Below are positions 4,058-45,410 of a stretch of 64,000 nucleotides of DNA, in pieces. Every line of letters begins with the position of its first letter. Position 1 is the first letter of the stretch. The notes beneath the pieces were generated by a model, which worked only from the letters and a program-made list of their open reading frames with translations, did no database searches and had not been told where the DNA came from. The position numbers and the translations under genes are program-made. Source of the stretch: a plasmid; the NCBI RefSeq assembly GCF_056746865.1, contig NZ_JBWKMP010000003.1; one strand, 5' to 3'.

Positions 4058-4075
4058 TTAGTTTTCTAACATAAA
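4058..4075. promoter_or_regulatory. operator-like motif copy (TTTTCTAACA core) upstream of the minus-strand repressor candidate
   Basis: One of about 14 copies of the core ATTTTCTAACA found across 10 intergenic sites. Confidence 0.4.
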
Positions 4076-5452: not shown

Positions 5453-5468
5453 ATTAATTTTCTAACAA
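5452..5468. promoter_or_regulatory. operator-like motif copy (TTAATTTTCTAACAACC) just after the cre stop
   Basis: Near-identical to the copy after ref (25208..25229). Confidence 0.4.
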
Positions 5469-9445: not shown

Positions 9446-9826
9446 TCAAATATTGGAACCATATAGTTCACGTAGTTTATCCGCTACTGAAGATACGGGG
9501 ATTTCACCAGTTGCAGCCCCCACCGCAAGTTCCACCAGCACGGGAGAATCATATACCTGTATACCGTTACGGCGTAGAAATAGCAGCGCACTGTTTAGCG
9601 CGGTACGCTTATTGGCATCATTGAATATATGCCCTCTCGCTGTAGCCACCAGGTAGGTGGCGGAGACTTCGAAAAGGTCGGTGATCTCTTCGTAGGCAAC
9701 TCTGGCCTGAACTCTCCCGATAATGGCCTCTGCCCTGCCCGGATCTGACATGCCAGGCAGGCCGCCGTAGCGGCTTATATTCGCATCATGAAGCGCAATA
9801 AGTTCTTCCGGTGATATATGCCTCAT
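9446..9826 (-). CDS. doc: Doc toxin (Fic/Doc family), P1 death-on-curing
   Basis: 126 aa, essentially identical over its length to P1 Doc as remembered ([39 protein letters not shown]...). Confidence 0.95.
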
Positions 9827-10053
9827 TATCGGTTAACCAGTTCCTTGTTGGTGGAGTCCAGGGTGTCAAACAGGGATGCAAATTCAGCATCCAGCGCCGC
9901 TTTTTTGTAGGCTTCGAAAGTAGCCTTGCTGACAATTACTGCTGGCTCACGGCCTCTGCGGGTGATTTCAACCTCTTCCCCGGCTTCAACATTGTTGAGC
10001 ACTTCAGAAAGGTTGCCACGCGCGGTACGGAAGTTAATGGATTGCATAAACAC
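9826..10053 (-). CDS. phd: Phd antitoxin
   Basis: 73 aa beginning [39 protein letters not shown], matching P1 Phd. Stop and start overlap with doc. Confidence 0.95.
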
Positions 10054-10119: not shown

Positions 10120-10509
10120 TTAAATAACCGGACAATCATCAAATTCCCCACTTCGGGCATCATTGATGACATGAGTGATCACACCAAAAACAGCATTACT
10201 GCCCGTGTATCCATCGTCATCTACTGGTAACGCCTCTTTCTTCCCGGTGCTTAAGTCCTCCAGGTGCTGGCGCGGATACTTCCTGTATCTCTTTATGCGA
10301 TATTCACCCTCCATAGCGCACACAAGCAGAGAACCATCAACCGGAGTAAGCGAGGAATCAACCACCAGCAAAGCACCCTGCAATATTCCCTCACGGTGAT
10401 GGCTATCAGCTGCCCGCATGAAGTAGGTCGCTGAAGGATGTCTAATTATCTGCTGATCAAGAGAAATTCGGCTTTCAACATAATCCGCCGCAGGAGAAGG
10501 GAAGCCCAT
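10120..10509 (-). CDS. humD: UmuD'-like S24 peptidase-fold protein (P1 HumD)
   Basis: 129 aa with a LexA/UmuD C-terminal domain (catalytic Ser/Lys spacing) and no N-terminal cleavage arm. humD-phd-doc order is as in P1. Confidence 0.8.
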   Translation of the reverse strand: MGFPSPAADYVESRISLDQQIIRHPSATYFMRAADSHHREGILQGALLVVDSSLTPVDGSLLVCAMEGEYRIKRYRKYPRQHLEDLSTGKKEALPVDDDGYTGSNAVFGVITHVINDARSGEFDDCPVI

Positions 10510-10632: not shown

Positions 10633-10884
10633 TTATTTTTTTGGTGCATCCTCGTTCTGATACACCGGATCGCTCCCTTTTGGCAACTGGAGGCTTAACT
10701 GCCGATAGTGCCGTAACCGTTCCATGAAATAGGTGCGCAGATTCTCTGGTTGCTCGCGGGCTACCTGTTCAGCTATGACAGGTATGTTCAATCGCTCTTT
10801 GTACGCCACACCGCTGGCAGCCAGATCAACGTTAACCTTATCCCGTTCTTCCTGACTTTTAGCTGCAATATTCCAGTCGCTCAT
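10633..10884 (-). CDS. hypothetical protein
   Basis: 83-aa ORF at the distal end of the long leftward operon. Confidence 0.45.
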
Positions 10885-19489: not shown

Positions 19490-19519
19490 TGTTAGAAAAT
19501 TAAAATCAATATTCTAACA
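19490..19519. promoter_or_regulatory. operator-like inverted pair TGTTAGAAAAT...ATTCTAACA
   Basis: Intergenic, between the phosphatase and the DUF968 gene. Confidence 0.45.
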
Positions 19520-20767: not shown

Positions 20768-21039
20768 TTTGTTTTCTCCTGTCTGAACATCACTATCATC
20801 AGGTCGCCTTTTGTCGCTATCCTGGCTGTTGTACCTGGTTCAATGCGGCTAAGCTCAAATGCGTCATAGAACGCTTCTAATGCCTTCTGGCGTAGTTCCT
20901 GTTTGCGCCGTTTTTTCCACTGTTTTAGGAAAATGGAACCCAGCCATCGCCATGTACGGGACATGATGTAAAGCCAACCGAGAAGTGCCAGACCGGTATT
21001 TAGGAGCGTATCGATCGTTATTGTCGTGTCGATATTCAC
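20764..21039 (-). CDS. small membrane protein
   Basis: 91 aa with one TM helix (LALLGWLYIMS) followed by a basic stretch. Confidence 0.4.
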   Translation of the reverse strand: MNIDTTITIDTLLNTGLALLGWLYIMSRTWRWLGSIFLKQWKKRRKQELRQKALEAFYDAFELSRIEPGTTARIATKGDLMIVMFRQEKTK

Positions 21040-21803
21040 TGGCTGCCTCCTTTGCGAAGCTGGTCGGCGAACAAACGTACACTAGACGCTTCACTGCGTA
21101 GAAACTTAACGGCATAATCAAAACCACCTCGTTCTGCGTCGTCTGCTCCGTTGTCGAGGTTATCTGCGTACATCTCTACCCCCTGCGCACGTACTTCAGC
21201 CAGGAAAGCATCGGTGGCTGGGGTATCAACACGGATACTGTCGCGCAAGATGAAAAATGCATTGAGCATTCCAGTCTCTGGCACTTCATCCTGATGCTTC
21301 TCATACGCATCAAGAGCCTTCATCATCTCAGCTCCGAATGGTTGAGGGTGCACAGACTTCAGCTCCGCATTCTCCGCCGCCAGCACCGCGCGTTCGCTCT
21401 CCAGTTCTGTAATGCGCCGTCTTGCAGCATCCAGTTCAATCGACAATTTTCCCAACTGCTCTTTATGCTTCTTGTATTCCTGATATGCGTGCCAAGACTG
21501 ACCTTTGCGCACACTATCCGTGATATCAGTAATCTGTTCTGGTGTTAGCGTGGTCAGTGGCTGTGCTGGGAAAATCAGCACTTTCCCAGCATCCCAATCA
21601 AAACCCACCTGAATTGACTGAACCTCAACTGATGGTGTTGAACCGATGCGACCAGGCGAATGAACAACGATCGTTACATCCATATCGCGACGATGGCTGT
21701 GGTTGTTGGACAAAATACGATTCACCAACTCCGAGAATTTGGAAAATTTCATGCTGATTCCCTTTGCTCTTCCTGGATAATGTTGTTGCAATCTTTCACG
21801 CAC
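21036..21803 (-). CDS. Ead/Ea22-like mosaic protein, family B
   Basis: 255 aa with [18 protein letters not shown]...[11 protein letters not shown] and a central coiled coil. Confidence 0.55.
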
Positions 21804-22072
21804 TCGTTGCAGATGAAAACGTTGTCCCCGGCAATTAACTTTTTAACGGTGTGCTGGGATTTGTTGCAGAAGCTGCAATAAAGCGTTGGACTGGCTGATA
21901 TGGATGGTGCGCCAGATGTCAGCCGCGCGATGTCGTTCTTGCGACGCAATATCACACGGCTGCACTCGACCAGCATCTCCGGGGATATATCCTCCTCCGT
22001 GGCGAGCGCCTCCAGACGTTCGAGCAAGCGAAATACTTTTTCCTGGGTGATTGCAGAATGCGATGTGGTCAT
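21749..22072 (-). CDS. ClpX-type C4 zinc-finger domain protein (ZBD only, no AAA+ module)
   Basis: 107 aa from MTTSHS, with [57 protein letters not shown] is close to the ClpX N-terminus [40 protein letters not shown]. Confidence 0.6.
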
Positions 22073-22073
22073 C

Positions 22074-22748
22074 TCACTCTCCTTTGATGCGAATGCCAGC
22101 GGCACGGGAGTCATTCCATCGCTTTACTTCTTCACGAATTACGTCAATGCATTCTTTCGAATCCATTAGGTAATCTTCATCAAAAAGCCTTTCCTGTTCG
22201 TTTTCTATCGCAACAATGATTGCTTCAACTAACTTTTGTGCCTGAGAACCACTTTCTAACTCTGCAATGCGCTTCTCTGCGGCTTCCAGCTTCTCGCGCA
22301 TATCGTCAACGTACTCGACCAGAGATCCGCCAGCAGGAATTTCGCACTCCTCGACCAGTTGGAAGTAGATATCAGCTGCGGCCCGTGTGTTGCTATGCCT
22401 AGCGTCGCCCATCTCACCTTCACGAAGAGCATCGCGTTCGGCGGTAAGATTGGCTATTTTGCTGTCTTTGCCTTCAAGCTCAACGCGCAGCTTCCCTACC
22501 GTTAGCGCAATATCCTCGTTCTCCTGGTCGCGGCGTTTTATGTATTGCTGGTTTCTTTCCCGTTCATCCAGCAGCGCCAGCACAATGTGTGGCGTTATCA
22601 AGGACTCAAATTCGGCAACAGCTTGCTCACCTCGCTTGTAATTCTTAATCCCACCTAAATCTTTCGCGTTCTGTGCCGCCTCACGCAGCGCCAGTGTGTC
22701 GATGTCGATGTCGATGTTGCTCATTGTGCCTCCTCGATTTCGTCCCAT
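22074..22748 (-). CDS. Ead/Ea22-like mosaic protein, family A
   Basis: 224 aa. Shares an identical block with 15160..15912 and the same 3' DNA junction CTCACTCTCCTTTGATGCGAATGCC. Confidence 0.55.
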
Positions 22749-22954
22749 TCCACCCAGGCATTCTCTCCATCAGCATCGATTTCACCTTTGTGACCGCATT
22801 TGGAACAAACGGCCTCATCACCCGCCCACAAAGAATCTTTGGTTACCGACCATCCTGTTACCCTGGCTTTGCCGTGCTGGCACCTAGGGCAATCATCAAG
22901 CCATTCGACTTCGACCGTTGAAGGACCAAATCCATGTTCAGTTCGGATGCTCAT
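22721..22954 (-). CDS. zinc-ribbon protein (CPRC...CSKC)
   Basis: 77 aa from MSIRTEHGF. ATGA overlap with the upstream gene. Confidence 0.4.
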   Translation of the reverse strand: MSIRTEHGFGPSTVEVEWLDDCPRCQHGKARVTGWSVTKDSLWAGDEAVCSKCGHKGEIDADGENAWVEWDEIEEAQ

Positions 22955-23454
22955 GACTGAACTCCTTTGCGAATCTGTTCCGCCCATTCTTCAAGGGATT
23001 TCTCCGCATATTCACCGGACAGGCCATCAATCGGATGCGGTTCATTAGCCAACTCTTCTTTCGCTGACAAAATCATGCGTGTAACGTCGAAAACTTCACG
23101 CAAAGACTTATTGATAAATCCGTGATTGAACGCAGCAGCAAGACGGCTTGCGGTGTAGTTAATCCCCTCGTTGCGTGCCTCCGCACGTATTTCAGCCAGG
23201 AAAGCGTCGGTGGCTGACATATTTCCTGTTGCCTTCATGGCCTTCAAAATAACCAGAACGCCATCTTGCCCAACCAACTCGGAGATAATCTCAGTGTTGT
23301 CGCCAACAACCTCACAGAATGCCTGAACAGCTTTACGAGCAAGTGCATTCTCCGCCGCCAGCGCCGCGCGCTCTTTCTCAAGTCGGGAAATTTCCGTTAC
23401 ATACTCAGCGTTACGCTCTGCCAGTTGTGCGGGCGTTAAACCTTCAGACTTCAT
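22951..23454 (-). CDS. Ead/Ea22-like mosaic protein, family B (short)
   Basis: 167 aa with [19 protein letters not shown]...WAEQIRKGVQS. Confidence 0.5.
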   Translation of the reverse strand: MKSEGLTPAQLAERNAEYVTEISRLEKERAALAAENALARKAVQAFCEVVGDNTEIISELVGQDGVLVILKAMKATGNMSATDAFLAEIRAEARNEGINYTASRLAAAFNHGFINKSLREVFDVTRMILSAKEELANEPHPIDGLSGEYAEKSLEEWAEQIRKGVQS

Positions 23455-24564: not shown

Positions 24565-24596
24565 GTGTTAGAAAATCAATTTTGATTTTCTAACAC
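24565..24596. promoter_or_regulatory. 32-bp near-perfect palindromic operator GTGTTAGAAAATCAATTTTGATTTTCTAACAC in a divergent promoter region
   Basis: 15+2+15 palindrome built from two copies of the dispersed TGTTAGAAAAT motif. Lies between the leftward accessory operon and ref. Confidence 0.55.
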
Positions 24597-24640: not shown

Positions 24641-25216
24641 ATGAAGCAAAGCTATTGGGAGAAACAGACACAAAAAGCCCTGCAAAAACTGGCTGATCCG
24701 AAATGGCGGGAGGAACAAAGGGCAAAGCGTCTTCAGCAAGCTCAACGCCAGCAGCAGCGTGCGCGAGAAAAAGCCGCATCGCCTGAATATCGGCAAAAGA
24801 AAATTGAAAAAGCGAAGCAATATGAACAGCGAAGAAAAGAGAAGGCCGCTTCTGCTCCTGTCAAAAAAACTCGCGCGTCACGCGGCCTGAAAGGCAGAAC
24901 ACTCACAGCAGATGAGCGCCGGATACAAACTGCCATCGGTGCTCTCCCCTGCATTGCCTGCCATATGCACGGACAGCATAGCCCTGTGGTATCCCTGCAC
25001 CACATCTTCGGGAGAACAGCAGAAAACGCGCATAAATACGTCCTCCCTTTGTGTAAATGGCACCATCAACACGCAGCGCCAGCAGAGATCCGCGAGCAAT
25101 ACCCCTGGTTGGTTCCTGTTCATGCTGATGGAAAAATAGGCGGCAAAGCAGATTTCAGGCGGCACAATGCTGATGAAATGACGTTGTATCAGATGGTGAC
25201 TGAATTAATAAATTAA
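24641..25216 (+). CDS. ref: Ref-like HNH endonuclease (P1 recombination enhancement function type)
   Basis: 191 aa from MKQSYWEK (a TTG-initiated extension is also possible). Highly basic, disordered N-terminus. C-terminal Zn/HNH-like pattern LPCIACHMHGQH...LHHIFGR...CKWHHQH. Located downstream of the operator, in a P1-like context. Confidence 0.5.
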   Translation: MKQSYWEKQTQKALQKLADPKWREEQRAKRLQQAQRQQQRAREKAASPEYRQKKIEKAKQYEQRRKEKAASAPVKKTRASRGLKGRTLTADERRIQTAIGALPCIACHMHGQHSPVVSLHHIFGRTAENAHKYVLPLCKWHHQHAAPAEIREQYPWLVPVHADGKIGGKADFRRHNADEMTLYQMVTELIN

Positions 25217-25229
25217 TTTTCTAACATTT
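25208..25229. promoter_or_regulatory. operator-like motif copy (TAAATTAATTTTCTAACATTTT)
   Basis: Near-identical to the copy after cre. Confidence 0.4.
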
Positions 25230-35911: not shown

Positions 35912-35956
35912 CAAAACTGTGTTAGATAATTGAGTTTTATTTTCTAACACAGTTTT
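35912..35956. promoter_or_regulatory. 15-bp perfect inverted repeat CAAAACTGTGTTAGA...TCTAACACAGTTTTG carrying the TCTAACA operator motif
   Basis: 15-nt spacer; sits directly upstream of rdgC. Confidence 0.45.
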
Positions 35957-45330: not shown

Positions 45331-45410
45331 TGTTCTAATGTTTTATGTTAGAAAATTAAGATTAAACCATACTAACACAAGATTGTTAACGAAAATTATT
45401 TTTCTAATGC
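45331..45410. promoter_or_regulatory. cluster of four operator-like half-sites (TGTTCTAATG, TGTTAGAAAATTAA, CTAACAC, ATTTTTCTAATGC) in a divergent promoter region
   Basis: Same core motif as the other dispersed sites. Lies upstream of the head-protein candidate. Confidence 0.4.

What the first reader, a model, noticed from the sequence alone, without database searches (positions are those of the whole stretch)
21749..22072. Stand-alone ClpX zinc-binding-domain protein
The 107-aa product reproduces the ClpX N-terminal C4 zinc finger almost residue for residue ([39 protein letters not shown]) but has no AAA+ module. The ZBD is the ClpX dimerisation and adaptor/substrate docking domain (SspB, lambda O, MuA). 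A free ZBD is predicted to titrate adaptors or substrates and so tune ClpXP degradation of phage or host proteins. This is a plausible host-takeover or anti-defence device.
Basis: partly seen in the sequence, partly recalled or inferred. Interest (0 to 1): 0.6.

Follow-up and report, generated by a model that had tools for sequence, protein, structure and literature searches.

The report
Phage copy of ClpX docking domain
A plasmid-like E. coli phage carries a small gene that joins a private helical domain to a faithful copy of the docking domain of the host ClpX protease motor. It probably acts as a decoy that blocks one branch of host protein degradation, but this has never been tested.

Summary
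A 107-aa gene lies at 21749-22072 on the minus strand. Its C-terminal 44 residues are a true ClpX zinc-binding domain (Pfam E 9.8e-18; 28/39 identical to E. coli ClpX; model 1.7 Å from the crystal structures). It has no AAA+ motor.

"Stand-alone" is only half right. Residues 1-52 form a conserved three-helix domain that occurs only fused to this ZBD.

The window is a D6-like E. coli phage-plasmid. The gene sits in a tightly packed accessory operon among Ead/Ea22-like genes. The family is confined to temperate phages of Escherichia and Salmonella and is present in 194 of 5,426 complete E. coli genomes. RefSeq already names it "ClpX C4-type zinc finger protein", and PHROG 6797 lists it with unknown function.

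Synonymous sites against host clpX are saturated, yet 72-79% of ZBD residues are kept. This indicates an old capture held by selection.

Published biochemistry shows that free ClpX ZBD binds adaptor tails and inhibits adaptor-dependent ClpXP degradation in trans. A receptor-domain decoy is therefore the best mechanism, at a confidence of about 0.45. The physiological target and the role of the N-domain are unknown. I found no paper that characterises such a phage protein. Interest is moderate.

The parts
21749..22072 (-). CDS, 107 aa plus TGA: two-domain ClpX-ZBD protein (PHROG 6797; RefSeq WP_021551796-like 'ClpX C4-type zinc finger protein')
21917..22072 (-). N-terminal region, residues 1-52. 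It has a predicted three-helix domain (H10-26, H31-43, H45-52). It is family-specific and is found only fused to this ZBD.
   Evidence: AF2 model. Invariant E18, R19, E21, L23, E26, E27, E36, L42, R44, D47, L51. Profile search of 1.84 billion representatives finds it only with a ZBD. All 35 IMG/VR loci carry it with a ZBD.
21887..21916 (-). Low-confidence Ser/Ala/Pro-rich linker, residues 53-62
   Evidence: pLDDT below 50 at residues 56-59
21755..21886 (-). ClpX-type C4 zinc-binding domain, residues 63-106, with Cys66, Cys69, Cys88 and Cys91
   Evidence: Pfam PF06689; PDB sequence match; Foldseek match to 2ds6 and 2ds8 at rmsd 1.7 Å; 28/39 identical to MG1655 ClpX residues 13-51
22079..22084 (-). 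Shine-Dalgarno AAGGAG, 6 nt upstream of the ATG
   Evidence: read from the sequence
22074..22748 (-). Upstream gene: Ead/Ea22-like coiled-coil protein. Its stop is 1 nt before the ZBD gene's ATG.
   Evidence: Pfam PF13935, E 2.8e-15
21036..21752 (-). Downstream gene, in ATGA overlap. It is a mosaic protein with a phrog_6026-type N-terminal module and an Ead/Ea22-like coiled-coil tail. It is a frequent neighbour but not a dedicated partner.
24566..24595 (.). Perfect palindrome made of two copies of TGTTAGAAAATCAA, between ref and the head of the leftward operon that holds the ZBD gene. It is a candidate master-repressor operator. That the operon is repressed in the prophage is an inference from this.
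   Evidence: 10 sites in the window against 0.85 expected; all seven sites with at most one mismatch are intergenic

Best explanation
The protein is a trans-acting mimic of the ClpX N-terminal docking domain.

**Shown.**
- It folds as a ClpX zinc-binding domain and keeps the ClpX signature residues.
- It has no motor.
- It carries an extra, conserved helical domain joined by a flexible linker.
- It is an autonomous accessory gene of temperate Enterobacterales phages.
- It has been kept by purifying selection long after its capture.

**Inferred.**
- The ZBD dimerises as it does in ClpX.
- It binds the same short peptide motifs that dock on the ClpX N-domain. These include the XB tails of SspB, RssB-type adaptors, the UmuD tether, and N-domain degrons such as those of lambda O, MuA and MqsA.
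- By competing for those clients it would selectively slow the N-domain-dependent branch of ClpXP proteolysis. Pore-recognised substrates, such as bare ssrA tags, would be left alone.
- The N-terminal helical domain adds either avidity through oligomerisation or a second, specific contact. Which one is unknown.
- The gene is probably switched on with the early or accessory operon when the master repressor is lifted.

The benefit to the phage is not established. It could be stabilisation of phage or host proteins that ClpXP would remove, or prevention of ClpXP-triggered toxin activation.
For: **Domain identity and fold:**

**Client-pocket residues.** L13, H23 and A30 of ClpX are retained as L64, H74 and A81. 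This comes from the alignments and the mutational data in PMC8808172. A30 was dispensable in that study.

**ClpX-family signature.** The signature residues, including the surface polar residues K71, Q73, K77, E90 and N96, are invariant or nearly so.

**Old capture under selection.** Synonymous sites against E. coli clpX are saturated (pS 0.83-1.0), while 72-79% of ZBD residues are conserved. There is no blastn similarity to clpX in the 5,232 E. coli genomes that lack the gene. Within the family dN/dS is 0.2-0.55.

**In-vitro precedent.**
- Free ZBD in trans inhibits RssB/sigma-S degradation (PMC7226468).
- The isolated ZBD binds XB peptides at nanomolar Kd (PMC12373786).
- The N-domain directly binds UmuD', lambda O, MuA, FtsZ and SspB (PMC8808172).

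**Distribution.**
- The gene moves between unrelated temperate phage types: D6-like, 107-kb phage-plasmids, P2-like and chromosomal prophages. It has no obligate partner gene, so the target is probably a host component.
- Other small ZBD-only ORFs occur in unrelated phages: Caulobacter phage Cr30 and Pseudomonas phage PP9W2, and the matches to phrog_12435 and phrog_5259.
Against: - No binding or activity data exist for this protein or any relative.
- L12 of ClpX, which is needed for MqsA binding, is Thr here and varies in the family. H23 is replaced by Tyr or Thr in many members.
- Among close relatives the ZBD shows higher dN/dS (0.4-0.9, on small counts) than the N-domain (0.2-0.4). The strongest constraint may therefore sit on the uncharacterised N-domain, which the decoy model does not explain.
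- Free ZBD inhibited in vitro only at a 10- to 30-fold excess over ClpX, so high expression or added avidity would be needed.
- Expression timing is inferred only from a candidate operator.
Confidence: 0.45

Rival explanations
1. Hijacking adaptor or tether. The ZBD is a handle that plugs the protein onto ClpX, by pairing with a ClpX N-domain or through bound adaptors. The private N-terminal helical domain holds a specific phage or host protein. That cargo is then delivered to ClpXP for destruction, or ClpX is re-targeted or blocked at its entry face.
For: The N-domain is strongly conserved and under tighter constraint than the ZBD, as expected for a specific binding module. It is joined by a flexible linker, as in modular adaptors. 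The core and helix positions of the ZBD (V92, C95, I98, I99, F86) match those of ClpX, so heterodimerisation is conceivable. Phage-encoded adaptor-like modulators of Clp proteases exist, for example SPO1 Gp53 for ClpCP (from my own knowledge, not checked here).
Against: ClpX ZBD dimers are reported to be very stable, so exchange into assembled hexamers is doubtful (Wojtyra 2003, recalled; the paper appears in the reference lists seen). No cargo candidate co-occurs with the gene across phage types. The N-domain has no detectable relative or fold match to suggest a ligand.
Confidence: 0.15
2. The ZBD fold is used here as a generic zinc-ribbon dimerisation or peptide-binding module, and the protein acts in a process unrelated to ClpXP. 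For example, it could regulate or bind another phage or host factor through the N-domain.
For: PF06689 occurs outside ClpX, for example in cyanobacterial sigma-factor architectures (PMC11119718, listed). The N-domain is the more constrained half. Client-pocket positions L12 and H23 are not strictly kept.
Against: The 72-79% identity to the host-type ClpX ZBD, with saturated synonymous sites, covers surface polar residues as well as the fold core. A mere dimerisation module would be free to drift. Bit scores are highest against E. coli and other gammaproteobacterial ClpX (57-61 bits) and lower against Listeria (43) and Neisseria (37) ClpX.
Confidence: 0.2
3. Same decoy biochemistry but a defensive role. 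The prophage expresses the protein to exclude competing phages that depend on the ClpX N-domain, such as Mu transpososome disassembly or turnover of lambdoid O protein.
For: In P2-like prophages the gene lies between replication gene A (with ParM and StbB) and the portal gene. This is the P2 tin/old region, known as a hotspot for anti-phage genes (from my own knowledge: Rousset et al. 2022). MuA and lambda O are N-domain clients.
Against: No PADLOC model matches the protein or its neighbours. In the D6-like element the operon carries a candidate repressor operator, which suggests silence in the lysogen. There are no data on expression in lysogens.
Confidence: 0.12
4. A decaying fragment of a captured clpX gene with no function.
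For: Two of 35 IMG/VR loci carry frameshifted fusions with the downstream gene. Truncated forms also exist.
Against: The frame is intact, with a strong SD and translational coupling. dN/dS is below 1 across divergent members. All zinc ligands are invariant. The gene is spread over four phage types and 194 E. coli genomes. The fused N-domain is not clpX-derived.
Confidence: 0.03

Closest known systems
[quoted passage not shown]
   Same: Same fold, the same four Cys ligands, and 72% identity over 39 residues. Pocket residues L13, H23 and A30 are kept.
   Different: It is not attached to an AAA+ ring. It sits at the C-terminus of the protein rather than the N-terminus, behind a private three-helix domain. 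L12 is Thr. The gene is encoded by phages, not by the host.
Recombinant ClpX(1-60) ZBD used as a competitor in vitro
   Same: It is a free ZBD without a motor. It inhibits adaptor-dependent ClpXP degradation and binds XB peptides (PMC7226468; PMC12373786).
   Different: That is a laboratory construct. Here a natural gene would do the same, with an added N-domain that could raise avidity or specificity. No activity has been tested.
Phage-encoded inhibitors or modulators of host AAA+ proteases: T4 PinA and T7 Gp4.5 (Lon), lambda RexB (ClpP-family), SPO1 Gp53 (ClpCP). Recalled from my own knowledge.
   Same: The proposed role is the same: a small phage accessory protein that alters host regulated proteolysis.
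   Different: There is no sequence or fold relation. Those proteins bind the protease. This one would mimic the protease's own receptor domain and bind its clients.
Anti-adaptors IraP, IraM and IraD of E. coli
   Same: They are small proteins that block one adaptor-dependent ClpXP pathway, RssB/sigma-S.
   Different: They bind the adaptor RssB through unrelated folds. Here the inhibitor would be a copy of the adaptor's docking site and so would be expected to hit several adaptors and N-domain degrons. Similarity was not tested.
Lambda Ea8.5 (helical plus zinc-finger protein next to ea22)
   Same: It is a small early accessory protein with a helical N-part and a C-terminal zinc finger, adjacent to an Ead/Ea22-family gene.
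   Different: There is no sequence similarity (BLASTP E 8.9). The Foldseek PDB search listed no lambda Ea8.5-type protein among its matches.
Other ZBD-only phage ORFs (Caulobacter phage Cr30, Pseudomonas phage PP9W2; phrog_12435 and phrog_5259 also match the ZBD)
   Same: They are short phage proteins consisting essentially of a ClpX-type ZBD.
   Different: They lack the N-terminal helical domain, occur in phages of other hosts, and are equally uncharacterised.

Membership tests
Pfam PF06689 zf-C4_ClpX (domain) | Profile match above the gathering threshold | tested here: met
   64.2 bits against a cutoff of 27, E 9.8e-18, profile positions 2-39 of 39
Pfam PF06689 zf-C4_ClpX (domain) | Four zinc-ligand cysteines, CxxC ... 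CxxC | tested here: met
   C66, C69, C88 and C91 align with ClpX C15, C18, C37 and C40 and are invariant in the family
Pfam PF06689 zf-C4_ClpX (domain) | ZBD fold (beta-hairpins plus C-terminal helix) | tested here: met
   AF2 pLDDT of about 85-89 over the domain. Foldseek match to 2ds6, 2ds8 and 1ovx at rmsd 1.7-1.8 Å, probability 1.00
Pfam PF06689 zf-C4_ClpX (domain) | Constitutive dimerisation and binding of XB-type peptides | not testable with these tools
   Only single-chain prediction was available. Interface-type residues V92, C95, I98 and I99 are conserved, which is suggestive only.
ClpX AAA+ unfoldase (TIGR00382 / NF003745) | Full-length match including the AAA+ module (Walker A/B, pore loops, IGF loop) | tested here: not met
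   43.6 and 47.5 bits against cutoffs of 370.75 and 359. The match covers only profile positions 5-50. The protein is 107 aa.
PHROG 6797 (phage protein family, unknown function) | End-to-end profile match | tested here: met
   E 1.5e-56, residues 1-106 on profile positions 1-106 of 107
Known anti-phage defence system components (PADLOC-DB 2.0) | Match to any defence-system protein model, for the protein or its neighbours | tested here: not met
   0 families for 10 proteins at E up to 0.01
Lambda Ea8.5 family | Sequence or fold similarity to Ea8.5 | tested here: not met
   BLASTP E 8.9. No lambda Ea8.5-type entry appears among the matches listed by the Foldseek PDB search.
Carboxylate--amine ligase (legacy GenBank name for this family) | Any ligase domain | tested here: not met
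   The only Pfam or NCBIfam matches are to the ClpX ZBD. The name is a propagated mis-annotation.
Phage-encoded inhibitors of host AAA+ proteases (functional class) | Demonstrated inhibition of a host protease pathway | not testable with these tools
   This needs ClpXP degradation assays. Only precedent for the isolated host ZBD is available.

The most novel reading that the evidence does not exclude
Temperate enterobacterial phages captured the client-docking domain of ClpX and fused it to a new helical domain. The result is a natural receptor-mimic that shuts off or re-routes the whole adaptor- and N-domain-dependent branch of ClpXP proteolysis. As far as I could find, this would be the first virus-encoded decoy of an AAA+ protease's own substrate-recognition domain. 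ZBD-only ORFs in unrelated phages (Cr30, PP9W2) suggest the strategy has arisen repeatedly.
Probability: 0.35. Interest if true: 0.7.

Novelty: new variant of a known kind. Interest (0 to 1): 0.45.

Why it matters
**If the decoy reading is right**, phages have a way to switch off selectively the regulated, adaptor-guided part of ClpXP proteolysis without touching bulk quality control. That branch covers sigma-S turnover, SspB-assisted tag clearance, UmuD/D', some antitoxins such as MqsA, and the replication or transposition proteins of rival phages.

- This would add a new mechanism, mimicry of the receptor domain, to the short list of viral protease modulators.
- It would give ClpXP researchers a natural, genetically encodable tool to separate N-domain-dependent from pore-dependent substrates in vivo.
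- It could explain how some temperate phages avoid protease-triggered toxin-antitoxin defences.

The element studied here also carries phd-doc. In P1 the antitoxin of that module is a ClpXP substrate, so there may be an internal link worth testing.

**If the reading is wrong**, the gene is one more small accessory protein of unknown function in the Ead/Ea22 region.

Tried and rejected
1. **Dedicated partner gene: rejected.**
   - Neighbours differ between D6, PhiR41_1, P88 and P2-like prophages.
   - A phrog_6026-type module starts the downstream gene in 30 of 37 loci. However, that module occurs in more than 352 protein clusters, far beyond the ZBD family of about 24 clusters.
2. **Identity of the N-domain: none found.**
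   - Pfam at E up to 10 gave only noise.
   - Foldseek against the PDB and BFVD matched only the ZBD.
   - A profile search of 1.84 billion representatives found the N-domain only fused to a ZBD.
3. **An XB-like docking motif inside the N-domain** (LRRK at 42-45, FRLLE at 14-18). I considered this by eye and rejected it. The Arg of FRLLE is not conserved, LRRK lacks the hydrophobic residues of the XB motif, and both lie in predicted helices, whereas XB binds as a strand.
4. **Lambda Ea8.5 relationship:** no similarity.
5. **Known defence system:** no PADLOC match.
6. **P1 C1 operator consensus:** absent from the window. A different repeated 14-mer was found instead.
7. **Recent capture from E. 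coli clpX: rejected.** There is no blastn match to clpX, and synonymous sites are saturated.
8. **Taxonomic spread through GTDB species representatives:** the pattern scan found nothing.
9. **Host-matching test for the Cr30 ZBD:** uninformative, because only exact 8-mer seeds are used.
10. **Residue-level map of the SspB and lambda O sites** (Thibault 2006, Park 2007): these papers are not held. I used PMC8808172 instead.
11. **Multimer modelling:** This applies to the homodimer, the heterodimer with ClpX 1-60, and the XB complex.

Full report
**1. The observation**

- The ORF at 21749-22072 is on the minus strand and encodes 107 aa.
- Its start is well supported. AAGGAG lies 6 nt upstream of the ATG at 22072, and most homologues begin with MTTSHSA.
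- The upstream gene stops 1 nt before this ATG. The downstream gene starts in an ATGA overlap with the stop. The gene is therefore one link in a translationally coupled string.
- Pfam finds zf-C4_ClpX at E 9.8e-18, 64 bits against a cutoff of 27.
- phmmer against the PDB finds the E. coli ClpX zinc-binding domain at E about 1e-15.
- An AlphaFold2 model (mean pLDDT 79, about 85-89 over the ZBD) superposes on the ZBD crystal structures 2DS6 and 2DS8 at 1.7 Å.
- Against ClpX of E. coli K-12, read from the genome itself, 28 of 39 core residues are identical.
- There is no AAA+ module. The ClpX equivalog models score about 45 bits against cutoffs of about 360.
"Almost residue for residue" overstates a 72% match.

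**2.

Only residues 63-106 are ZBD. Residues 10-52 are predicted as three helices, joined to the ZBD by a low-confidence Ser/Ala/Pro-rich linker.

This N-terminal region is strongly conserved, even in the 49%-identical P88 homologue. Invariant positions are E18, R19, E21, L23, E26, E27, E36, L42, R44, D47 and L51.

- A profile of it, searched against 1.84 billion representative proteins, found it only in proteins that also carry the ZBD, or in truncated forms of them.
- All 35 IMG/VR loci that encode it have the ZBD behind it.
- It has no Pfam match and no fold match.

The protein is therefore a two-domain invention, not a bare ZBD.

**3. Where it lives**

The window is a D6-like E. coli phage-plasmid of about 90 kb. 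It is 99% identical to plasmid 4 of strain MINF_7C over the region tested, and the gene order follows phage D6.

The gene lies in a long leftward operon of accessory genes, with abutting or overlapping reading frames:
- Ead/Ea22-like proteins;
- DUF4752 and DUF4406 proteins;
- a NinI/Ppp-like phosphatase;
- a DUF968/PdcB-like protein.

At the head of that operon, between it and ref, sits a perfect 32-bp palindrome made of two copies of TGTTAGAAAATCAA.
- The 14-mer occurs 10 times in the window against 0.85 expected.
- All seven copies with at most one mismatch are intergenic.
- I read this as the operator of the element's master repressor, so the operon would be silent in the prophage and early after induction. 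This is an inference.

**4. Distribution**

Full-length relatives occur in several temperate phage types:
- phage D6;
- the 107-kb phage-plasmids PhiR41_1 and CMS-2020a;
- the P2-like phage P88 and related prophages, between gene A with parM and stbB and the portal gene;
- chromosomal prophages of Escherichia and Salmonella.

In complete E. coli genomes the gene is found in 194 of 5,426, about half on plasmids and half on chromosomes.

Neighbours are not conserved across these phage types. The common downstream module is far more widespread than the ZBD gene itself. The gene therefore behaves as an autonomous accessory gene (a "moron"), which suggests that its target is a host component common to all these phages.

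**5. Databases and literature**

RefSeq already calls the product "ClpX C4-type zinc finger protein", and PHROG 6797 covers it end to end with unknown function. The older name "carboxylate--amine ligase" has no basis.

**6. Evolution**

- Against host clpX the synonymous sites of the ZBD are saturated (pS 0.83-1.0). No blastn similarity to clpX is detectable. Yet 72-79% of residues are the same. This is an old capture kept ClpX-like by selection, not a recent fragment.
- Within the family dN/dS is 0.2-0.55.
- Among close pairs the N-domain (0.2-0.4) looks more constrained than the ZBD (0.4-0.9). The counts are small.

**7. Mechanism**

Established biochemistry of the host domain supplies the lead:
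- The ClpX N-domain binds SspB, UmuD', lambda O, MuA and FtsZ directly (PMC8808172).
- Isolated ZBD binds XB peptides with Kd of 35-82 nM (PMC12373786).
- Isolated ZBD added in trans inhibits RssB-dependent sigma-S degradation by ClpXP (PMC7226468).
- ClpX residues L12, L13 and H23 are needed for the MqsA degron, and H23 for the SspB tail. A30 was tested and is dispensable.

In the phage protein L13, H23 and A30 are retained as L64, H74 and A81. L12 is Thr, and in other family members H23 can be Tyr or Thr.

The best-supported explanation is a receptor-domain decoy that competes for N-domain clients. It would selectively damp adaptor- and N-domain-dependent ClpXP proteolysis.
- **Shown:** domain identity, fold, retention of key residues, selection, and autonomy of the gene.
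- **Inferred:** dimerisation, client binding, inhibition, expression timing and benefit to the phage.
- **Unexplained:** the conserved N-domain. It may add avidity or a second contact.

I put this explanation at about 0.45.

**8. Rivals**

- **Hijacking tether, about 0.15.** The ZBD attaches the protein to ClpX and the N-domain brings a cargo.
- **A ClpXP-unrelated use of the zinc ribbon, about 0.2.**
- **Same biochemistry used by the prophage to exclude ClpX-dependent rivals such as Mu, about 0.12.** The position in the P2 tin/old hotspot hints at this. No defence model matches.
- **A dead fragment, about 0.03.** The data on selection and spread contradict this.

**9. Possible physiological links (speculative)**

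- The same window carries doc (9446-9826), phd (9826-10044) and humD (10120-10509). In P1, Phd is a ClpXP substrate, and UmuD/D' turnover uses the ClpX N-domain. Both statements come from my own knowledge and from the references listed.
- ClpXP-dependent antitoxin loss triggers at least one anti-phage TAC system, CmdTAC. It does so through a pore-recognised Ala-Ala tail, which a ZBD decoy would not block (bioRxiv 2024.02.24.581848).
- MqsA degradation, by contrast, does depend on the N-domain.

**10. Generality and novelty**

- ZBD-only ORFs exist in unrelated phages. Examples are an unannotated ORF of about 70 aa in Caulobacter phage Cr30 (L010:1186-1425) and a 65-aa protein of Pseudomonas phage PP9W2. 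The ZBD also matches two short PHROG profiles, phrog_12435 and phrog_5259.
- ClpX N-domain specificity is partly species-specific (PMC5422525). This fits host-type copies.
- Six full-text searches found no paper that characterises any such phage protein.

**11. Verdict**

The mechanism is plausible and easy to test, but it is unproven. This is a new variant of a known kind, namely phage modulators of host AAA+ proteases, acting here through mimicry of the receptor domain. Interest is moderate, at 0.45.

Noticed in passing
window 4058-4071, 5454-5467, 19490-19503, 24566-24595 (double, palindromic), 25213-25226, 35936-35949, 45346-45359: The 14-mer TGTTAGAAAATYAA is repeated 10 times in the window (at most 2 mismatches) against 0.85 expected. 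All seven copies with at most one mismatch are intergenic, next to gene starts or ends. The P1 C1 operator consensus is absent. This is a candidate operator set for the D6-type master repressor.
   Followed up: partly
window 9446-9826 (-), 9826-10044 (-), 10120-10509 (-), 10633-10884 (-): The element carries doc and phd (a P1-type addiction module whose antitoxin is a ClpXP substrate in P1), humD (UmuD'-like) and a DNA polymerase III theta (hot) homologue. These are potential ClpXP-linked clients on the same element as the ZBD gene.
   Followed up: partly
window 21036-21752 (-): The downstream gene is a mosaic. Its N-terminal module of about 100 aa (phrog_6026 type, [14 protein letters not shown]...) is 88-100% conserved. 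It is fused in different elements to different coiled-coil, Ead/Ea22 or DUF551 tails, and it occurs in more than 352 protein clusters. Its function is unknown.
   Followed up: partly
P0001, P0008, P0017; L038 and L041; compare window 22951-23454 (-): Some family members carry a swapped N-terminus, MKSEGLTPAQLAERNAEL.... This is the start of the phrog_614 gene that lies two genes upstream in this window. It shows recombination between accessory genes inside coding sequences.
   Followed up: no
L029:4001-4849 and L046:3917-4822 (IMG/VR): Frameshifted variants in which the ZBD gene loses its C-terminal helix and reads through into the downstream gene. They are probably inactivated alleles or sequencing errors.
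   Followed up: no
L010:1186-1425 (+) (Caulobacter phage Cr30, NC_025422 81470-81709): An unannotated ORF encodes a ZBD-only protein of about 70 aa ([20 protein letters not shown]...CSECVDLC). It spans two small CDS that were annotated in other frames.
   Followed up: partly
GenBank and RefSeq records of D6 and P88, and many E. coli proteins: The family is widely labelled 'carboxylate--amine ligase'. No domain evidence supports this name.
   Followed up: yes
L009 (NZ_LR890273.1 31380-33436), just outside the part of the element covered by the window: The sister plasmid carries a cluster of five tRNA genes and a Thoeris anti-defence Tad2-family gene. Elements of this type therefore do carry known counter-defence cargo.
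   Followed up: no
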